Positions 7,883 to 14,957 of a stretch of DNA of 64,000 nucleotides are shown here, in pieces. This stretch comes from Gammaproteobacteria bacterium (GTDB lineage: Bacteria > Pseudomonadota > Gammaproteobacteria > GCA-001735895): positions 3,428-67,427 of the forward strand of contig JBNKKI010000173.1 of assembly GCA_050291745.1 (NCBI GenBank), written 5' to 3'. The position numbers and the translations under genes were made by a program. The notes beneath the pieces were generated by a model. It worked only from the letters and a program-made list of their open reading frames with translations, was not told the origin of the DNA and made no database searches. Position 1 is the stretch's first letter. Each line of letters starts with the position of its first letter.

Positions 7883-9514
7883 ATGTTAGATCGAGTTAAT
7901 TATCTGTCCATTCATATTGATGAAGTTTTAAGCGAAGGCGGTTATCCGCAGGAAGCGCAAAACATCATAAAGGCTGAAAATCTATTACCTCAGGGGCTGG
8001 TGAATCGCCTGCATAATCTGTATCCGCAGTATTCTATTCTCAATCGTACAACTCCACCGATTTTTACCGAGCGTCAAAACTACACCGGTTTGAAAGGCTT
8101 TCGTCTTGTTTGCAAAACGCTGGCTGAACATGGAATTCATATCGATCATATCCTTGAACGGGAACTTTTTATTGAAGTTTATCGTTTTCTGGCAACCCGC
8201 CACACTTTGAATAGCATTGACTGGGATCATTACCAGACTGATAGTGTATTTCAACTGGTTTTTCCACAACCGGGTATGATTCAGCAAAATGTGGTTGACA
8301 GATACCTTGCAGCTCCCAATGCAGAAGCTCGCTCGAAAGTTGCCAGGGACTATATGCATGAAACTAACCCGCATGATGGTAATCAGCAACTCAATAAGCC
8401 CTGGTTTAAAAATGAAGATGGCGATCTTGAAGTGCTGGCAGGTAGTCAGCATAAATACCCGCAGACTCAGCTTATTTTTGATAAATCCACCCAGCACTGT
8501 TTTTCATTCTGTACTTATTGTTTCCGTCACGCTCAGGTACGCGGAGATGAAGATATGTTTTTACAGCAGGATATAAATCAAATTCATCAATATCTTCGTA
8601 AACACAAAGAGGTAACTGACTTGCTAATCACCGGTGGTGATGGTGGATTTATGCCAGCTGAGCGTTTACTGCAATATGTTGAACCACTTTTTGATGATGT
8701 TGAATTAATCCACATCCGAACTGTTCGCCTGGCAACCCGATCACTGACATTTCAGCCTGAAATGGTTTTGACTGAAAAATACCGGAAAATGCTCGGAGTG
8801 TTCGACAAAATGCATGAAAATGGTATACAGCTTGCGTGGATGGCTCATTTTTCAACACCGAAAGAGTTACTCAATCCTATGACTATTGCGGCAATACGTC
8901 GTTTACAGCAACATGGTGTAGCGATCCGTAGCCAAAGTCCTATGATGAAACATATCAGTTTATTTCCTAAACAGGATGGTTCAACCGATATTGAAAAATC
9001 AGCTCAAAACTGGATTGATCTGGCACTTATTCAGAATACATTGCAAGTAGGATTCCATTCAATGTATTGCGCACGTCCAACCGGTGAACATCATTACTAC
9101 ACAGCACCACTGGTCGATGTAATCAAAATATTTAATCTAATCTATCGCTCACTACCATCGATTGCCAGACCGACCCGGCACATCTCTATGACTACATCGG
9201 CAGGTAAATTATCTTTGATGGGTCTTTCCGAAATTAATGGTGAAACGGTTATTGCGTTAAAGTTTAATGAAGCCCGTAATATGCAATGGATAGATAAAGT
9301 TTTTCATGCTAAATATAACCCGCGTACAAATGATGTTAATTTGTTACAGGCTGTCGAGGGTGACAGTTTCTTTTTTCAGCAGGAACTTGAAGAAATTGAA
9401 CAAGCATTAGAAGATTCATTAAAAGAAGCAATGAGTACGTCCAGAAATATTCATATGGATAAAACTCTGCAACAGGACCAGTCTGCAGAAACAGATTTTC
9501 CACAGGCTTTTTAA
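7883..9514 (+). CDS. KamA-family radical SAM aminomutase (lysine 2,3-aminomutase-like) with ~190-aa N-terminal extension
   Basis: CFSFCTYCFRH (CxxxCxxC) followed by LITGGDGG, homologous to the KamA core. Start placed at ATG 7883 (GAGGTGG RBS) rather than ATG 7850, which has no RBS. Confidence 0.8.
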   Translation: MLDRVNYLSIHIDEVLSEGGYPQEAQNIIKAENLLPQGLVNRLHNLYPQYSILNRTTPPIFTERQNYTGLKGFRLVCKTLAEHGIHIDHILERELFIEVYRFLATRHTLNSIDWDHYQTDSVFQLVFPQPGMIQQNVVDRYLAAPNAEARSKVARDYMHETNPHDGNQQLNKPWFKNEDGDLEVLAGSQHKYPQTQLIFDKSTQHCFSFCTYCFRHAQVRGDEDMFLQQDINQIHQYLRKHKEVTDLLITGGDGGFMPAERLLQYVEPLFDDVELIHIRTVRLATRSLTFQPEMVLTEKYRKMLGVFDKMHENGIQLAWMAHFSTPKELLNPMTIAAIRRLQQHGVAIRSQSPMMKHISLFPKQDGSTDIEKSAQNWIDLALIQNTLQVGFHSMYCARPTGEHHYYTAPLVDVIKIFNLIYRSLPSIARPTRHISMTTSAGKLSLMGLSEINGETVIALKFNEARNMQWIDKVFHAKYNPRTNDVNLLQAVEGDSFFFQQELEEIEQALEDSLKEAMSTSRNIHMDKTLQQDQSAETDFPQAF

Positions 9515-9535
9515 AGATTATATAAAATTATTCTC

Positions 9536-10246
9536 ATGATAGATAAACGCGTAAGTTCAGTAGCAGAAGCCGTTGCCGATATACCTGATGGCGCCACCAT
9601 CATGATTGGTGGTTTCGGTGAAGCGGGCAGTCCCACCGAATTAATTCATGCCCTGATCGATCTTGGATCAAAAAATTTGACAGTCATCAATAATAACACC
9701 GGCAATGGTGAAATTGGACTGGCTGCCCTGATTGCACAGGGTCAGGTAAGAAAAATGATTTGCTCATATCCCCGATCAAGCCATTCAAAAGTGTTCCCGG
9801 TGCTTTACCGCAATGGCGATATCGAACTGGAAATAGTGCCACAGGGTACACTGGCTGAACGTATTCGAGCTGGTGGTGCTGGCATACCGGCTTTTTATAC
9901 TTCAACAACAGTGGGTACAGTTCTGGCTAAAGATAAAGAAATCCGGCAGTTCGATGGCCGTCAGTATGTCATGGAATATGCCCTGAAAGCTGATTTTGCA
10001 TTAATCAAATGCGAACAAGCAGATCGTCTGGGTAATTTAATCTACAATAAAACGGCCAGAAATTTTAATCCGGTTATGTGTACGGCTGCTACAACCACCA
10101 TTGTACAGGCACATCAAATTGTAGAAGTAGGTGAACTTGATCCGGAAGCGATTATCACAGCAAATATTTTTGTTAATCGTATTGTAGAAGTACAACAACC
10201 GTTAATTGAATCTGCAATGATTGCTGCGGGAGTACGTTATCCATGA
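9536..10246 (+). CDS. 3-oxoacid CoA-transferase subunit A (PcaI/ScoA-like)
   Basis: MIDKRVSSVAEAVADIPDGATIMIGGFGEAGSPTELI... matches family I CoA-transferase alpha subunits. Confidence 0.85.
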   Translation: MIDKRVSSVAEAVADIPDGATIMIGGFGEAGSPTELIHALIDLGSKNLTVINNNTGNGEIGLAALIAQGQVRKMICSYPRSSHSKVFPVLYRNGDIELEIVPQGTLAERIRAGGAGIPAFYTSTTVGTVLAKDKEIRQFDGRQYVMEYALKADFALIKCEQADRLGNLIYNKTARNFNPVMCTAATTTIVQAHQIVEVGELDPEAIITANIFVNRIVEVQQPLIESAMIAAGVRYP

Positions 10247-13428: not shown

Positions 13429-13454
13429 CTTTAGCTTTTAACCGGGGAACTTAA

Positions 13455-14957
13455 ATGTCTTACAATGAAATATTAGAAAATCTTGATTTTGAGCCTTCTG
13501 ATTACCTTAATGGTAGCTTGCTCGTTCATTCTCCTATTGATGGCTCTCATATTTCTACTGTAGCTGAAATAAATGCATCCGAAATGGATACTATAATTGC
13601 TCAGGCGAAAATTGCATTTAACAGCTGGAAAAATGTACCTGCTCCCCGCCGTGGCGAACTGGTACGTTTACTGGCTGATGAATTACGAAAATCAAAACAG
13701 GAACTGGGTAAGCTGGTTACTTTAGAGTGTGGAAAAATATATTCTGAAGGATTGGGTGAAGTTCAGGAAATGATTGATATCTGTGATTTTGCAGTGGGTC
13801 TATCACGTCAACTGTATGGCTTAACTATTGCTTCCGAACGGCCAGGACACACGATGCGGGAAAGCTGGCAACCACTGGGAATAGTCGGCATTATTTCATC
13901 TTTTAATTTCCCGGTTGCCGTCTGGTCATGGAATACCGCGCTGGCACTGGTCTGTGGTAACAGTATTATCTGGAAACCTTCAGAAAAAACGCCTTTAACC
14001 GCTATTGCCTGTGGAAAAATCCTGAATCGTGCTCTGGCCCGATTTGCTGATGCACCGGCTAATCTTCACCAGATAGCAATAGGTGGCAGAGATATCGGTG
14101 AAGCTCTGGTGAAAAATCATGATATAGCTTTAATCAGTGCAACAGGCAGTACTCGTATGGGTAAAACAGTTGCACCGATAGTAGCCGAACGTTTTGGTCG
14201 TTCTATATTGGAGTTAGGTGGTAATAATGCAATGATAGTGACACCTTCTGCCGATCTGGATATGGCTGTGCGAGCTATTCTTTTCAGTGCAGTCGGAACC
14301 TGTGGGCAACGTTGTACATCACTGCGCCGTTTGATTGTTCATAAAGATATTAAAAATCAATTATTACCAAAAATAAAAAAAGCCTACGCCAGTATTAGTA
14401 TAGGTAATCCTCTGGATAGTAATAATCTTGTTGGCCCGTTAATTGATGAAAATGCCTATCAGGCTATGGAATCAGCTTTACAGAAAGCAGAAAAAGATGG
14501 GGCGAGAGTGACTGGTGGTGAACGAACATTAGTTGGTAAATATCCTGATGCTTATTATGTAAAACCAGCTATAGTAGAAATACAGGGTCAAAGTGAAATA
14601 GTTAAAAGTGAAACTTTCGCACCAATTCTATATGTTATGGAATATGAAGATTTTAATGATTCAATTAAAATGCAGAATGATGTACCTCAGGGCTTGTCTT
14701 CCTGTATCTTTACTAATGATGTACGTGAAAGTGAATACTTTTTATCTGTAAGCGGTTCTGATTGTGGTATTGCCAATGTTAACATAGGCCCGAGTGGTGC
14801 AGAAATTGGCGGTGCTTTCGGTGGTGAAAAAGAAACAGGTGGTGGTCGGGAATCCGGGTCCGATGCCTGGAAAAGTTATATGCGCAGACAGACCAATACC
14901 GTCAATTATTCCACAGAATTACCCCTGGCTCAGGGTGTGGAATTTAATATAGATTAA
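13455..14957 (+). CDS. ALDH7-family aldehyde dehydrogenase (alpha-aminoadipic semialdehyde/piperideine-6-carboxylate dehydrogenase-like)
   Basis: [18 protein letters not shown] and [40 protein letters not shown] are hallmark ALDH7 (antiquitin/AmaB) segments. Confidence 0.85.
   Translation: [500 protein letters not shown]

What the first reader, a model, noticed from the sequence alone, without database searches (positions are those of the whole stretch)
7883..14957. LysR-linked cluster suggesting an undescribed lysine/beta-lysine catabolic route converging on 3-oxoadipyl-CoA
Five co-oriented, tightly packed genes follow a LysR regulator: a KamA-family radical SAM aminomutase (CxxxCxxC), PcaI/PcaJ-like CoA-transferase subunits, a GSAM-like class III aminotransferase of the type that acts on beta-amino groups, a PcaF-like beta-ketoadipyl-CoA thiolase, and an ALDH7 enzyme (hallmark [18 protein letters not shown] and [27 protein letters not shown]). 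ALDH7 is the aminoadipate-semialdehyde dehydrogenase of lysine catabolism. KamA makes beta-lysine in lysine fermentation. The PcaIJ + PcaF pairing normally belongs to the 3-oxoadipate pathway. A chemically closed scheme can be written: lysine -> beta-lysine (KamA) -> 3-amino-6-oxohexanoate -> 3-aminoadipate (ALDH7) -> 3-aminoadipyl-CoA (CoA transferase, succinyl-CoA donor) -> 3-oxoadipyl-CoA (beta-transaminase) -> acetyl-CoA + succinyl-CoA (thiolase, regenerating the donor). I am not aware of this combination being a described pathway.
Basis: partly seen in the sequence, partly recalled or inferred. Interest (0 to 1): 0.72.

Follow-up and report, generated by a model that had tools for sequence, protein, structure and literature searches.

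The report
Predicted new 2-aminoadipate breakdown operon
This LysR-linked operon probably encodes an undescribed way of burning the lysine breakdown product 2-aminoadipate: a very divergent radical-SAM enzyme would shift its amino group to the next carbon, so that the molecule can be deaminated and split into succinyl-CoA and acetyl-CoA.

Summary
Six tightly packed co-oriented genes (7883-14957, +) follow a LysR gene. They encode a KamA-like radical-SAM/PLP protein ("KamL"), PcaI, PcaJ, a HemL-like class-III aminotransferase ("AT3"), PcaF and an ALDH7 piperideine-6-carboxylate (P6C)/aminoadipate-semialdehyde (AASA) dehydrogenase.

The core KamL-PcaIJ-AT3-PcaF block is conserved. It occurs in about 85% of 60 informative loci, out of 324 matching species genomes from many phyla. 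It is never found with aromatic pca/cat genes.

KamL lacks both acidic residues that hold lysine's epsilon-amino group (LAM D293/D330, EpmB D288/E325). It has an invariant Arg398 and Ser435 instead. The ALDH7 keeps all eight aminoadipate-contact residues of human ALDH7A1. In other genomes the ALDH7 gene sits beside pipecolate-oxidase-like or lysine-6-dehydrogenase-like genes.

Best model: lysine/pipecolate -> P6C/AASA -> 2-aminoadipate (ALDH7) -> 3-aminoadipate (KamL) -> 3-oxoadipate or its CoA ester (AT3, PcaIJ; order unresolved) -> succinyl-CoA + acetyl-CoA (PcaF).

Ten full-text searches found no description of this route. Everything is inferred from sequence and gene context; nothing has been tested biochemically.

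The parts
6883..7782 (+). LysR-family (GcvA-like) transcriptional regulator, the presumed regulator of the operon
   Evidence: Pfam HTH_1 + LysR_substrate. A LysR gene lies directly upstream of the KamA-like gene, co-oriented or divergent, in about half of the related loci. The effector is unknown.
7883..9514 (+). KamL: divergent KamA-like radical-SAM/PLP enzyme (543 aa), predicted 2-aminoadipate 2,3-aminomutase
   Evidence: CxxxCxxC at C206/C210/C213; R215 = LAM R134; TGGDG = LAM SGGDA; K442 = LAM PLP-binding Lys337; R398 and S435 replace LAM D293/D330. AF2 model pLDDT 76.7, pTM 0.82, and its only significant PDB match is 2A5H. Below every NCBIfam KamA-type cutoff and no Pfam hit. The substrate is inferred, not shown.
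9536..10246 (+). 3-oxoacid CoA-transferase subunit A (PcaI-like)
   Evidence: TIGR02429 352.8 bits (cutoff 128.5); Pfam CoA_trans. Follows KamL in 51 of 60 informative loci.
10243..10911 (+). 3-oxoacid CoA-transferase subunit B (PcaJ-like)
   Evidence: TIGR02428 295.3 bits (cutoff 243.55). Present in 52 of 60 informative loci. Overlaps pcaI by 4 bp.
10913..12226 (+). AT3: HemL/GSAM-like class-III aminotransferase, predicted beta-transaminase for 3-aminoadipate (or 3-aminoadipyl-CoA)
   Evidence: Pfam Aminotran_3. hemL model scores 323.8, below the 527.3 cutoff. Best PDB relatives are 6K8H, ForI (6SSD), GSAMs and the beta-transaminases 2YKU/4AO9/6IZ9. Present in 52 of 60 informative loci.
12223..13428 (+). 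3-oxoadipyl-CoA thiolase (PcaF)
   Evidence: TIGR02430 pcaF equivalog 702.5 bits (cutoff 597); NF006551 720.7 (cutoff 605). Present in 40 of 60 informative loci.
13455..14957 (+). ALDH7-type L-piperideine-6-carboxylate / 2-aminoadipate-semialdehyde dehydrogenase (AmaB-like), the feeder step that makes 2-aminoadipate
   Evidence: NF050084 822.5 bits (cutoff 730). 503 bits to human ALDH7A1. E105, F152, W159, R286, T288, G448, A449 and F455 match the aminoadipate-contact residues E121, F168, W175, R301, T303, G461, A462 and F468. An orthologue lies in 13 of 80 related loci.

Best explanation
The operon is a catabolic module that degrades 2-aminoadipate, the common intermediate of the L-lysine, D-lysine and pipecolate pathways, by a route not described so far.

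Proposed steps:
1. ALDH7 oxidises piperideine-6-carboxylate / 2-aminoadipate semialdehyde to 2-aminoadipate. This is its canonical reaction and is well supported. The semialdehyde comes from lysine or pipecolate through enzymes encoded elsewhere in this genome.
2. The KamA-like radical-SAM/PLP enzyme moves the amino group from C2 to C3, giving 3-aminoadipate. This would be a new 2-aminoadipate 2,3-aminomutase activity and is inferred.
3. The HemL-like class-III aminotransferase removes the beta-amino group.
4. PcaIJ uses succinyl-CoA to make the CoA ester.
5. PcaF cleaves 3-oxoadipyl-CoA to acetyl-CoA + succinyl-CoA, which regenerates the CoA donor. This is its canonical reaction.

The order of steps 3 and 4 is unresolved. 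Either 3-aminoadipate -> 3-oxoadipate -> 3-oxoadipyl-CoA, which I slightly favour, or 3-aminoadipate -> 3-aminoadipyl-CoA -> 3-oxoadipyl-CoA.

The LysR protein upstream presumably induces the operon in response to a pathway intermediate.
For: 1. Gene content and family assignments.

2. Conserved gene order. KamL-PcaI-PcaJ-AT3-PcaF recurs in Gamma-, Alpha-, Beta- and Deltaproteobacteria, Acidobacteriota, Planctomycetota, Sumerlaeota, SAR324 and Fibrobacteraceae. There are 324 matching places in a collection of 185,579 species genomes. Among 60 informative loci, AT3 is in 52, PcaI in 51, PcaJ in 52 and PcaF in 40. Besides LysR genes, no other gene family is shared by more than 7 loci, so there are no aromatic pca/cat genes and no lysine-fermentation genes.

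3. KamL keeps the catalytic apparatus of a 2,3-aminomutase. It has the Cys triad, the SAM motif, the PLP-binding Lys and the alpha-carboxylate Arg, and its fold matches only 2A5H. At the two positions that bind lysine's epsilon-NH3+ it has an invariant Arg398 and Ser435, where LAM has D293/D330 and E. coli EpmB has D288/E325. A cationic residue there fits a substrate with a distal carboxylate.

4. ALDH7 passes the P6C dehydrogenase equivalog and conserves all eight aminoadipate-contact residues of human ALDH7A1. Its product is therefore 2-aminoadipate.

5. Genes beside ALDH7 in other KamL loci all converge on P6C/AASA:
- An AmaA-like L-pipecolate oxidase in L002, the closest relative of this cluster, and in L079.
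- A saccharopine-dehydrogenase-family protein whose best PDB match is PH1688 (3ABI), in L003, L008, L038, L066 and L080.
- In L080 and L066 the string ALDH7-KamL-PcaI-PcaJ-AT3-PcaF-SacDH-like is contiguous.

6. With 2-aminoadipate as the input, the conserved core is stoichiometrically complete, and each enzyme is used once in its family's usual reaction type.

7. Four alphaproteobacterial loci carry KamL-AT3 without PcaIJ, two of them (L008, L009) also with ALDH7. This fits KamL + AT3 producing free 3-oxoadipate.

8. AT3's structurally characterised relatives include beta-amino-acid transaminases.
Against: - There are no biochemical or genetic data of any kind.
- The Arg at the LAM D293 position is not unique to this family. 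It also occurs in 23 of 37 sampled members of a wider, equally uncharacterised KamA-like branch, so it may have a role other than binding an omega-carboxylate.
- ALDH7 is adjacent in only 13 of 80 loci, and lysine or pipecolate feeder genes in fewer than 10.
- No lysine-to-AASA enzyme is encoded in the 64-kb window.
- The roles of LAM D293/D330 come from my knowledge of the LAM structure paper, which I could not open.
- The AF2 model has low confidence in the cluster-binding loop (187-227) and in the 399-407 loop next to Arg398.
- Radical-SAM aminomutases are oxygen-sensitive, while many host genera are aerobes or facultative aerobes. EpmB does, however, function in aerobic E. coli.
Confidence: 0.6

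Rival explanations
1. KamL is a lysine 2,3-aminomutase. Beta-lysine is then deaminated at C6 to 3-amino-6-oxohexanoate, ALDH7 oxidises that to 3-aminoadipate, and the rest follows (CoA transfer, beta-transamination, thiolysis).
For: - The scheme is chemically closed and reaches the same end products.
- The SacDH-family (lysine-6-dehydrogenase-like) gene found in five related loci could in principle act on beta-lysine.
- Some sources annotate family members as lysine 2,3-aminomutase.
- A HemL-like beta-aminoacyl-CoA transaminase has a precedent.
Against: - KamL has Arg398/Ser435 where the lysine-acting enzymes have two acidic residues (LAM D293/D330, EpmB D288/E325).
- It scores 62 bits against the lysine 2,3-aminomutase equivalog cutoff of 525.
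- The conserved core lacks any enzyme for the C6 deamination, and most loci lack ALDH7, so the core would be incomplete with lysine as the input.
- ALDH7 keeps the residues that bind the 2-amino and 1-carboxylate groups of aminoadipate.
- An AmaA-like pipecolate oxidase next to ALDH7 in L002 and L079 points to P6C, not to a beta-lysine derivative.
Confidence: 0.1
2. The same kind of module (aminomutase, beta-transaminase, CoA-transferase, thiolase) acts on a different alpha-amino acid. Examples are glutamate (via beta-glutamate and 3-oxoglutarate to malonyl-CoA + acetyl-CoA), 2-aminopimelate or 2-aminobutyrate. The ALDH7 neighbour would then be incidental.
For: - The PcaI/PcaJ models are subfamily-level and do not separate 3-oxoadipate from other 3-oxoacids.
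- Arg398 fits any acidic amino acid.
- ALDH7 is absent from most loci.
- Beta-glutamate occurs in marine settings (my own knowledge).
Against: - The thiolase passes the 3-oxoadipyl-CoA thiolase equivalog.
- ALDH7 together with lysine and pipecolate feeder genes recurs in the cluster in unrelated lineages, in places as one contiguous gene string.
- Glutamate has far simpler catabolic routes.
- KamL scores only 56 bits against the glutamate 2,3-aminomutase equivalog (cutoff 650).
Confidence: 0.15
3. KamL is not a 2,3-aminomutase at all. It could do other radical-SAM/PLP chemistry or have a non-catalytic or biosynthetic role, or the cluster could make a beta-amino acid for a natural product rather than degrade one.
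For: - KamL is extremely divergent from every characterised KamA-type enzyme, with all scores far below the cutoffs.
- It has an extra N-terminal region of about 95 aa of unknown function.
- The whole branch it belongs to is uncharacterised.
Against: - All the catalytic hallmarks of the aminomutases are retained and invariant.
- The partner genes are catabolic (CoA-transferase, thiolase, LysR), and no NRPS, PKS or ligase genes are conserved nearby.
- An amino shift from C2 to C3 is exactly what is needed to make the neighbouring enzymes' substrates.
Confidence: 0.1

Closest known systems
Lysine 2,3-aminomutase (KamA/LAM, EC 5.4.3.2; PDB 2A5H) and EpmB
   Same: - The radical-SAM Cys triad, SAM motif, PLP-binding lysine and alpha-carboxylate arginine are conserved.
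- The fold matches 2A5H (Foldseek E 1e-9).
- The predicted reaction type is the same, a 2,3 amino shift.
   Different: - About 16% identity in the structural alignment.
- Below all family cutoffs.
- Both epsilon-ammonium-binding acidic residues are replaced (Arg398, Ser435).
- No C-terminal Cys cluster.
- An extra N-terminal region of about 95 aa.
- The predicted substrate is a dicarboxylic amino acid.
Glutamate 2,3-aminomutase (EC 5.4.3.9)
   Same: It is a KamA-type enzyme for an acidic amino acid, in which the LAM aspartates are replaced by basic or neutral residues (Lys/Asn, from my own knowledge of Ruzicka & Frey 2007). This is analogous to Arg/Ser here.
   Different: KamL scores only 56.5 bits against the equivalog model (cutoff 650). 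The replacement residues differ, and so does the context: a thiolase for a C6 chain, and ALDH7.
Lower branch of the beta-ketoadipate pathway (PcaIJ + PcaF)
   Same: The last two steps and enzyme families are the same: a 3-oxoacid:succinyl-CoA transferase and 3-oxoadipyl-CoA thiolase, giving succinyl-CoA + acetyl-CoA.
   Different: No pcaBCDGH or cat genes are conserved in any of the 80 loci. The 3-oxoadipate would come from an amino acid, not from an aromatic ring.
AmaA/AmaB pipecolate branch of lysine catabolism (Pseudomonas putida) and the known fates of 2-aminoadipate (2-oxoadipate -> HglS/2-hydroxyglutarate, or glutaryl-CoA)
   Same: It has the same AmaB-type ALDH7 making 2-aminoadipate. 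An AmaA-like oxidase is adjacent in L002 and L079.
   Different: After 2-aminoadipate, the known routes transaminate at C2 to 2-oxoadipate. Here an aminomutase would move the amine to C3, so that cleavage by the beta-ketoadipate enzymes becomes possible.
Lysine fermentation pathway and its Kat variant (3-aminobutyryl-CoA aminotransferase, PMC3149608)
   Same: The logic is the same: a radical aminomutase places an amino group beta to a carboxyl, and a HemL-like class-III aminotransferase turns a beta-amino compound into a beta-keto compound for thiolytic cleavage.
   Different: No KamDE, Kdd, Kce or Kal genes are present. The substrate is a C6 dicarboxylate. The products are succinyl-CoA + acetyl-CoA rather than acetate, butyrate and ammonia. 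The hosts are mostly respiring bacteria.

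Membership tests
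KamA-type radical-SAM/PLP 2,3-aminomutases (superfamily level) | CxxxCxxC motif for the [4Fe-4S] cluster | tested here: met
   C206/C210/C213 align with LAM C125/C129/C132 and are invariant in 48 aligned sequences.
KamA-type radical-SAM/PLP 2,3-aminomutases (superfamily level) | PLP-binding lysine (LAM K337), alpha-carboxylate arginine (LAM R134) and the GGD SAM motif | tested here: met
   K442, R215 and TGGDG(250-254) align with K337, R134 and SGGDA. The roles of these residues in LAM are from my own knowledge.
KamA-type radical-SAM/PLP 2,3-aminomutases (superfamily level) | Score above the curated family model (TIGR00238, cutoff 199.2) or a Pfam radical-SAM hit | tested here: not met
   66.3 bits; no Pfam family at E <= 0.001.
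KamA-type radical-SAM/PLP 2,3-aminomutases (superfamily level) | Fold of lysine 2,3-aminomutase | tested here: met
   The AF2 model (pTM 0.82) has only one significant PDB match, 2A5H: E 1e-9, probability 1.0, 399 aligned columns.
Lysine 2,3-aminomutase (EC 5.4.3.2) / EpmB | Two acidic residues that bind the epsilon-ammonium group of lysine (LAM D293, D330) | tested here: not met
   KamL has R398 and S435, invariant in the family. E. coli EpmB has D288 and E325.
Lysine 2,3-aminomutase (EC 5.4.3.2) / EpmB | Equivalog models TIGR03820 (cutoff 525.4) and TIGR03821 (cutoff 369.3) | tested here: not met
   62.4 and 45.7 bits.
Glutamate 2,3-aminomutase / arginine 2,3-aminomutase | Equivalog models TIGR04368 (cutoff 650) and TIGR04468 (cutoff 600) | tested here: not met
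   56.5 and 57.6 bits.
ALDH7 / L-piperideine-6-carboxylate dehydrogenase (AmaB) | Equivalog model NF050084 (cutoff 730), plus the residues that contact aminoadipate in human ALDH7A1 | tested here: met
   822.5 bits. E105, F152, W159, R286, T288, G448, A449 and F455 correspond to E121, F168, W175, R301, T303, G461, A462 and F468 (residue list from PMC11362210).
3-oxoadipyl-CoA thiolase (PcaF) | Equivalog model TIGR02430 (cutoff 597) | tested here: met
   702.5 bits; NF006551 720.7 (cutoff 605).
3-oxoadipate:succinyl-CoA transferase (PcaIJ) | Two-subunit 3-oxoacid CoA-transferase, and specificity for 3-oxoadipate | tested here: inconclusive
   The subfamily models are passed (352.8 against 128.5; 295.3 against 243.55). 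These models also cover ScoAB, so specificity cannot be read from sequence here.
Glutamate-1-semialdehyde 2,1-aminomutase (HemL) | Equivalog model TIGR00713 (cutoff 527.3) | tested here: not met
   323.8 bits. The protein is HemL-like but not HemL. Its PDB relatives include beta-transaminases.
Aromatic beta-ketoadipate pathway operon | Co-location with pcaB/C/D/G/H or catA/B/C genes | tested here: not met
   Clustering all ORFs of 80 loci gave no shared family beyond KamL, AT3, PcaI, PcaJ, PcaF, LysR and ALDH7. None is present in the window flanks either.
Lysine fermentation cluster (kamA-kamDE-kdd-kce-kal) | Presence of beta-lysine 5,6-aminomutase, 3,5-diaminohexanoate dehydrogenase and the cleavage enzyme | tested here: not met
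   No such conserved neighbours appear in 80 loci or in the window. This is judged from the ORF clustering; I ran no specific profiles for these genes.
Acyl-CoA beta-transaminase (Kat) | Sequence relationship to CLOAM0809 and activity on CoA esters only | not testable with these tools
Only its HemL-like nature is known, from PMC3149608.

The most novel reading that the evidence does not exclude
A widespread and so far undescribed route of lysine and 2-aminoadipate catabolism exists, in at least 324 species genomes across about nine phyla. It is opened by a new radical-SAM enzyme activity, 2-aminoadipate 2,3-aminomutase. It uses 3-aminoadipate as a true metabolic intermediate and merges amino-acid catabolism with the beta-ketoadipate enzymes. 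KamL would be the first characterised member of a large, entirely uncharacterised branch of KamA-like enzymes (365 50%-identity cluster representatives at E <= 1e-10).
Probability: 0.55. Interest if true: 0.8.

Novelty: new variant of a known kind. Interest (0 to 1): 0.7.

Why it matters
If correct, this would matter in five ways:
- It adds a new enzyme activity (2-aminoadipate 2,3-aminomutase) and a new metabolite (3-aminoadipate) to central amino-acid catabolism.
- It gives a third fate for 2-aminoadipate, besides the 2-oxoadipate/glutaryl-CoA route and the HglS/2-hydroxyglutarate route. This one yields succinyl-CoA + acetyl-CoA in four steps with no decarboxylation.
- It would fill lysine-catabolism gaps in genome-scale models of many marine and sediment bacteria.
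- It gives a functional foothold in a large unannotated branch of radical-SAM aminomutases.
- Run in reverse or repurposed, the enzymes are relevant to bio-based routes to adipate and beta-amino acids.

The prediction is directly testable with four recombinant enzymes and with cultivable Shewanella, Colwellia or Photobacterium strains.

Tried and rejected
- **Global hhalign, rejected.** I aligned the family profile against the single LAM sequence with hhalign in global mode. Downstream of residue 370 the alignment had low confidence and paired LAM D293 with D379. I rejected it after a MAFFT alignment through 37 intermediate KamA-like sequences plus EpmB, and the AF2 secondary structure (strand 390-396, helix 410-423), both placed D293 opposite R398.
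- **Promoter and terminator scan, uninformative.** The scan of 5300-16400 gave fewer hits than shuffled sequence.
- **Rfam.** Scanning the whole window found nothing, so there is no lysine riboswitch.
- **Feeder genes in the window.** I searched the 64-kb window for lysine-to-AASA genes (AmaA-like, SacDH/LysDH-like, DadA-like) and found none.
- **Rnf adjacency.** I considered that the Rnf operon immediately upstream might be functionally linked as a source of low-potential electrons for the radical-SAM enzyme. The adjacency is not seen in the other loci, so I treat it as coincidental.
- **Literature.** Ten full-text searches used 3-aminoadipate and synonyms, aminoadipate aminomutase, and aminomutase together with pcaIJF. 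They returned only metabolomics or meteorite papers and one reference-list misprint.
- **LAM structure paper.** I could not open it to cite the D293/D330 roles.
- **Possible horizontal transfer.** I considered whether the cluster is a horizontally acquired island. GC content (0.42-0.44) is not distinct from the flanks. However, KamL is closer to alphaproteobacterial versions (77-78% identity) than to other gammaproteobacterial ones (64-67%), so lateral transfer of the module is likely.

Full report
**Observation**

The window carries a LysR gene (6883-7782, +) followed by six co-oriented genes separated by 21, -4, 1, -4 and 26 bp:
- a 543-aa KamA-like protein, here called KamL (7883-9514). The ATG at 7883 has a GAGGTGG ribosome-binding site, and all homologues start there;
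- PcaI (9536-10246);
- PcaJ (10243-10911);
- a class-III aminotransferase, here called AT3 (10913-12226);
- PcaF (12223-13428);
- an ALDH7 enzyme (13455-14957).

Profile searches gave these assignments:
- PcaF passes the 3-oxoadipyl-CoA thiolase equivalog (702.5 against a cutoff of 597).
- ALDH7 passes the L-piperidine-6-carboxylate dehydrogenase equivalog (822.5 against 730).
- PcaI and PcaJ pass the 3-oxoacid CoA-transferase subfamily models.
- AT3 is HemL-like but below the HemL cutoff (323.8 against 527.3).
- KamL has no Pfam hit and reaches only 66 bits on the KamA subfamily model (cutoff 199).

The caveat is that the 'KamA-family' member is extremely divergent.

**The cluster is a conserved unit**

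The KamL family is large, with more than 3,000 hits, mostly labelled 'hypothetical protein' and sometimes 'lysine 2,3-aminomutase'. A scan of one genome per species found 324 places that encode it. The 80 best come from these groups:
- Gammaproteobacteria (Shewanella, Colwellia, Photobacterium, Pseudoalteromonas, Motiliproteus and others);
- Alpha-, Beta- and Deltaproteobacteria (including Desulfuromonadales);
- SAR324, Acidobacteriota, Planctomycetota, Sumerlaeota and Fibrobacteraceae.

I mapped the window's proteins onto these loci. Of 60 loci with at least 6 kb downstream, 52 have AT3, 51 have PcaI, 52 have PcaJ and 40 have PcaF, nearly always in the order KamL-PcaI-PcaJ-AT3-PcaF. Clustering all ORFs of the loci gave only two further recurrent families: LysR regulators, and ALDH7 in 13 of 80 loci. 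No aromatic pca/cat genes or lysine-fermentation genes recur.

**What the aminomutase-like protein is**

A profile of the family matches only one PDB sequence, lysine 2,3-aminomutase (LAM) 2A5H, over the radical-SAM core. An AlphaFold model (pLDDT 76.7, pTM 0.82) has 2A5H as its only significant structural match (E 1e-9).

To align the C-terminal half reliably I collected 37 intermediate KamA-like sequences from an exhaustive HMMER search. I aligned them with LAM, whose sequence I verified as identical to 2a5h_A, and with E. coli EpmB. The result:

| LAM residue | KamL residue | EpmB residue |
|---|---|---|
| C125/C129/C132 | C206/C210/C213 | C120/C124/C127 |
| R134 | R215 | R129 |
| K337 (PLP) | K442 | K332 |
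| D293 | R398 | D288 |
| D330 | S435 | E325 |

To my knowledge of the LAM structure (Lepore et al. 2005; I could not open the paper), D293 and D330 hold the epsilon-ammonium group of lysine. R398 and S435 are invariant in the KamL family. The predicted secondary structure agrees with this register: a strand at 390-396, then R398, then a helix at 410-423.

KamL therefore keeps the machinery of a 2,3-aminomutase. It has swapped the lysine-recognition pair for a cationic and a neutral residue, as expected for a substrate with a distal carboxylate.

There is a caveat. The same Arg occurs in 23 of 37 members of the wider KamA-like branch. That branch is itself uncharacterised, and all six members I scanned score below every NCBIfam cutoff.

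**What feeds the module**

The window's ALDH7 scores 503 bits against human ALDH7A1. It conserves every residue reported to contact the product aminoadipate (residue list from PMC11362210):

| Human ALDH7A1 | E121 | F168 | W175 | R301 | T303 | G461 | A462 | F468 |
|---|---|---|---|---|---|---|---|---|
| Window ALDH7 | E105 | F152 | W159 | R286 | T288 | G448 | A449 | F455 |

Its product should therefore be 2-aminoadipate.

In related loci the ALDH7 gene is accompanied by enzymes that make its substrate:
- An AmaA-like L-pipecolate oxidase, a full-length match of 472 bits, lies in L002 and L079. L002 is the closest relative of this cluster, with the order LysR-KamL-PcaIJ-AT3-PcaF-ALDH7-AmaA.
- A saccharopine-dehydrogenase-family protein lies in L003, L008, L038, L066 and L080. 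Its best PDB match is PH1688 (3ABI), which from memory is an L-lysine 6-dehydrogenase.
- In the deltaproteobacterial loci L080 and L066 the genes ALDH7-KamL-PcaI-PcaJ-AT3-PcaF-SacDH-like form one contiguous string.
- L042 has a DadA-like dehydrogenase and a polar-amino-acid ABC transporter.

All of these converge on P6C / 2-aminoadipate semialdehyde. None is present in the 64-kb window, so in this organism the feeder steps are encoded elsewhere.

**Mechanism proposed**

1. Lysine or pipecolate -> P6C/AASA. This step is encoded elsewhere.
2. -> 2-aminoadipate, by ALDH7. This is its canonical reaction and is well supported.
3. -> 3-aminoadipate, by KamL. This is inferred and would be a new activity.
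4. -> 3-oxoadipyl-CoA, by AT3 and PcaIJ.
5. -> succinyl-CoA + acetyl-CoA, by PcaF. This is its canonical reaction, and it regenerates the succinyl-CoA used by PcaIJ.

With 2-aminoadipate as the entry point, the conserved core is complete and each enzyme is used once.

**Order of the two middle steps**

This is unresolved.

Evidence for transamination of the free acid first:
- PcaIJ would do its canonical reaction.
- Four alphaproteobacterial loci have KamL-AT3 without PcaIJ, two of them (L008, L009) also with ALDH7.
- AT3's PDB relatives include free beta-amino-acid transaminases (2YKU, 4AO9, 6IZ9).

- The gene order is collinear with that sequence of reactions.
- Free 3-oxoadipate is labile.
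- Kat, a HemL-like aminotransferase, acts exclusively on 3-aminobutyryl-CoA (PMC3149608).

**Comparison with what is known**

The module combines three known elements in a way I could not find described:
- the AmaB step of the pipecolate/lysine pathway;
- a KamA-type aminomutase;
- the PcaIJ/PcaF lower branch of the beta-ketoadipate pathway.

Ten full-text searches returned no paper describing such a route or enzyme. They covered 3-aminoadipate and its synonyms, aminoadipate aminomutase, and aminomutase together with pcaIJ/pcaF. The single 'beta-aminoadipic' hit is a misprint for alpha-aminoadipic in a reference list. The library lacks most subscription journals, so prior description cannot be excluded.

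KamL is not a member of the lysine, glutamate or arginine 2,3-aminomutase equivalog families, because the defining features were tested and not met. It most likely works like them.

**Verdict**

The aminomutase most likely acts on 2-aminoadipate rather than on lysine.

- Confidence in the corrected model: about 0.6.
- Novelty: a new variant of known kinds. It would be a new substrate specificity in the KamA superfamily and a new pathway topology built from known enzyme families.
- Interest: 0.7. The prediction is specific, widely distributed and directly testable.

Noticed in passing
L080 4007-12674; L066 7972-17013: Two deltaproteobacterial MAG loci carry the fullest version of the pathway as one gene string: ALDH7-KamL-PcaI-PcaJ-AT3-PcaF-SacDH-family (lysine-6-dehydrogenase-like).
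   Followed up: yes
proteins P0124-P0270: KamL sits in a large uncharacterised branch of KamA-like radical-SAM proteins, about 400-470 aa long. There are 365 50%-identity cluster representatives at E <= 1e-10. All six members I scanned score below every NCBIfam cutoff. Most have Arg (ARD/ERD motif) where LAM has Asp293. Their substrates are unknown.
   Followed up: partly
window 7883-8170 and 9430-9514: KamL has about 95 extra N-terminal residues, predicted helical, that lie upstream of the stretch aligning with the LAM sequence. The window's sub-clade (with P0003 and P0037) also has a C-terminal tail of about 25 aa that the other family members lack. The function of both is unknown.
   Followed up: partly
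window 7883-9514 compared with L003-L008 and L015-L030: The window's KamL is 75-78% identical to alphaproteobacterial versions (Anderseniella, Rhodobacteraceae, Hyphomicrobiales). It is only 64-67% identical to those of other Gammaproteobacteria (Shewanella, Colwellia). This suggests lateral transfer of the module, although the GC content is not anomalous.
   Followed up: partly
window 30-5346: An Rnf/Rsx electron-transport operon (RnfC, RnfD, RnfE and RnfH identified) ends 1.5 kb upstream of the LysR gene. Rnf could in principle supply low-potential electrons to a radical-SAM enzyme, but the adjacency is not seen in the other loci.
   Followed up: partly
window 5346-6883: A 1.5-kb stretch has no ORF longer than 72 aa. 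A 49-aa fragment (5546-5695, ...LLMDESEAFLHPP...) looks like a remnant of an ATPase gene, which suggests decayed genes between rnfH and lysR.
   Followed up: no
window 15119-15310 (-) and 15356-16315 (+): A 63-aa ORF of unknown function lies on the minus strand, and a second GcvA-like LysR regulator lies just downstream of ALDH7. Both are also in the identical Logan contig L001. They are not in L002, where an AmaA-like gene occupies that position.
   Followed up: no
L010 7402-8730; L013: There are variant clusters. In L010 the AT3 orthologue is replaced by a distant (30% identity) GSAM-like aminotransferase placed after PcaF. L013 has KamL-PcaI-PcaJ-PcaF with no aminotransferase within 7 kb.
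   Followed up: partly
L018, L021, L025, L044, L047, L049, L056-L059: In Colwellia and Litorilituus the module is split. LysR-KamL stands alone, and in L047 and L057 the PcaF-AT3(-PcaJ) genes lie 7-9 kb downstream on the opposite strand, with unrelated genes in between (AraC-type regulator, MFS transporter, cytochrome b561-like, YceI-like). In the other listed loci no partner genes were found within the stretch fetched.
   Followed up: partly
window 24000-28500: A low-GC stretch (0.32-0.35, against about 0.42 elsewhere) holds two ORFs with no Pfam hit (24895-25722, 26534-27616) and a leucine-rich-repeat protein (27699-28466). It may be an acquired island.
   Followed up: no
window 29581-54486: The rest of the window is rich in catabolic genes: a polar-amino-acid ABC transporter, PutA (32785-36231), a branched-chain-type ABC transporter (36878-42883), a sigma-54 two-component pair (43346-47600) and an aconitase-family protein followed by PrpF (50692-54486), a pairing that suggests a methylcitrate-cycle cluster. 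None is specific to lysine.
   Followed up: partly
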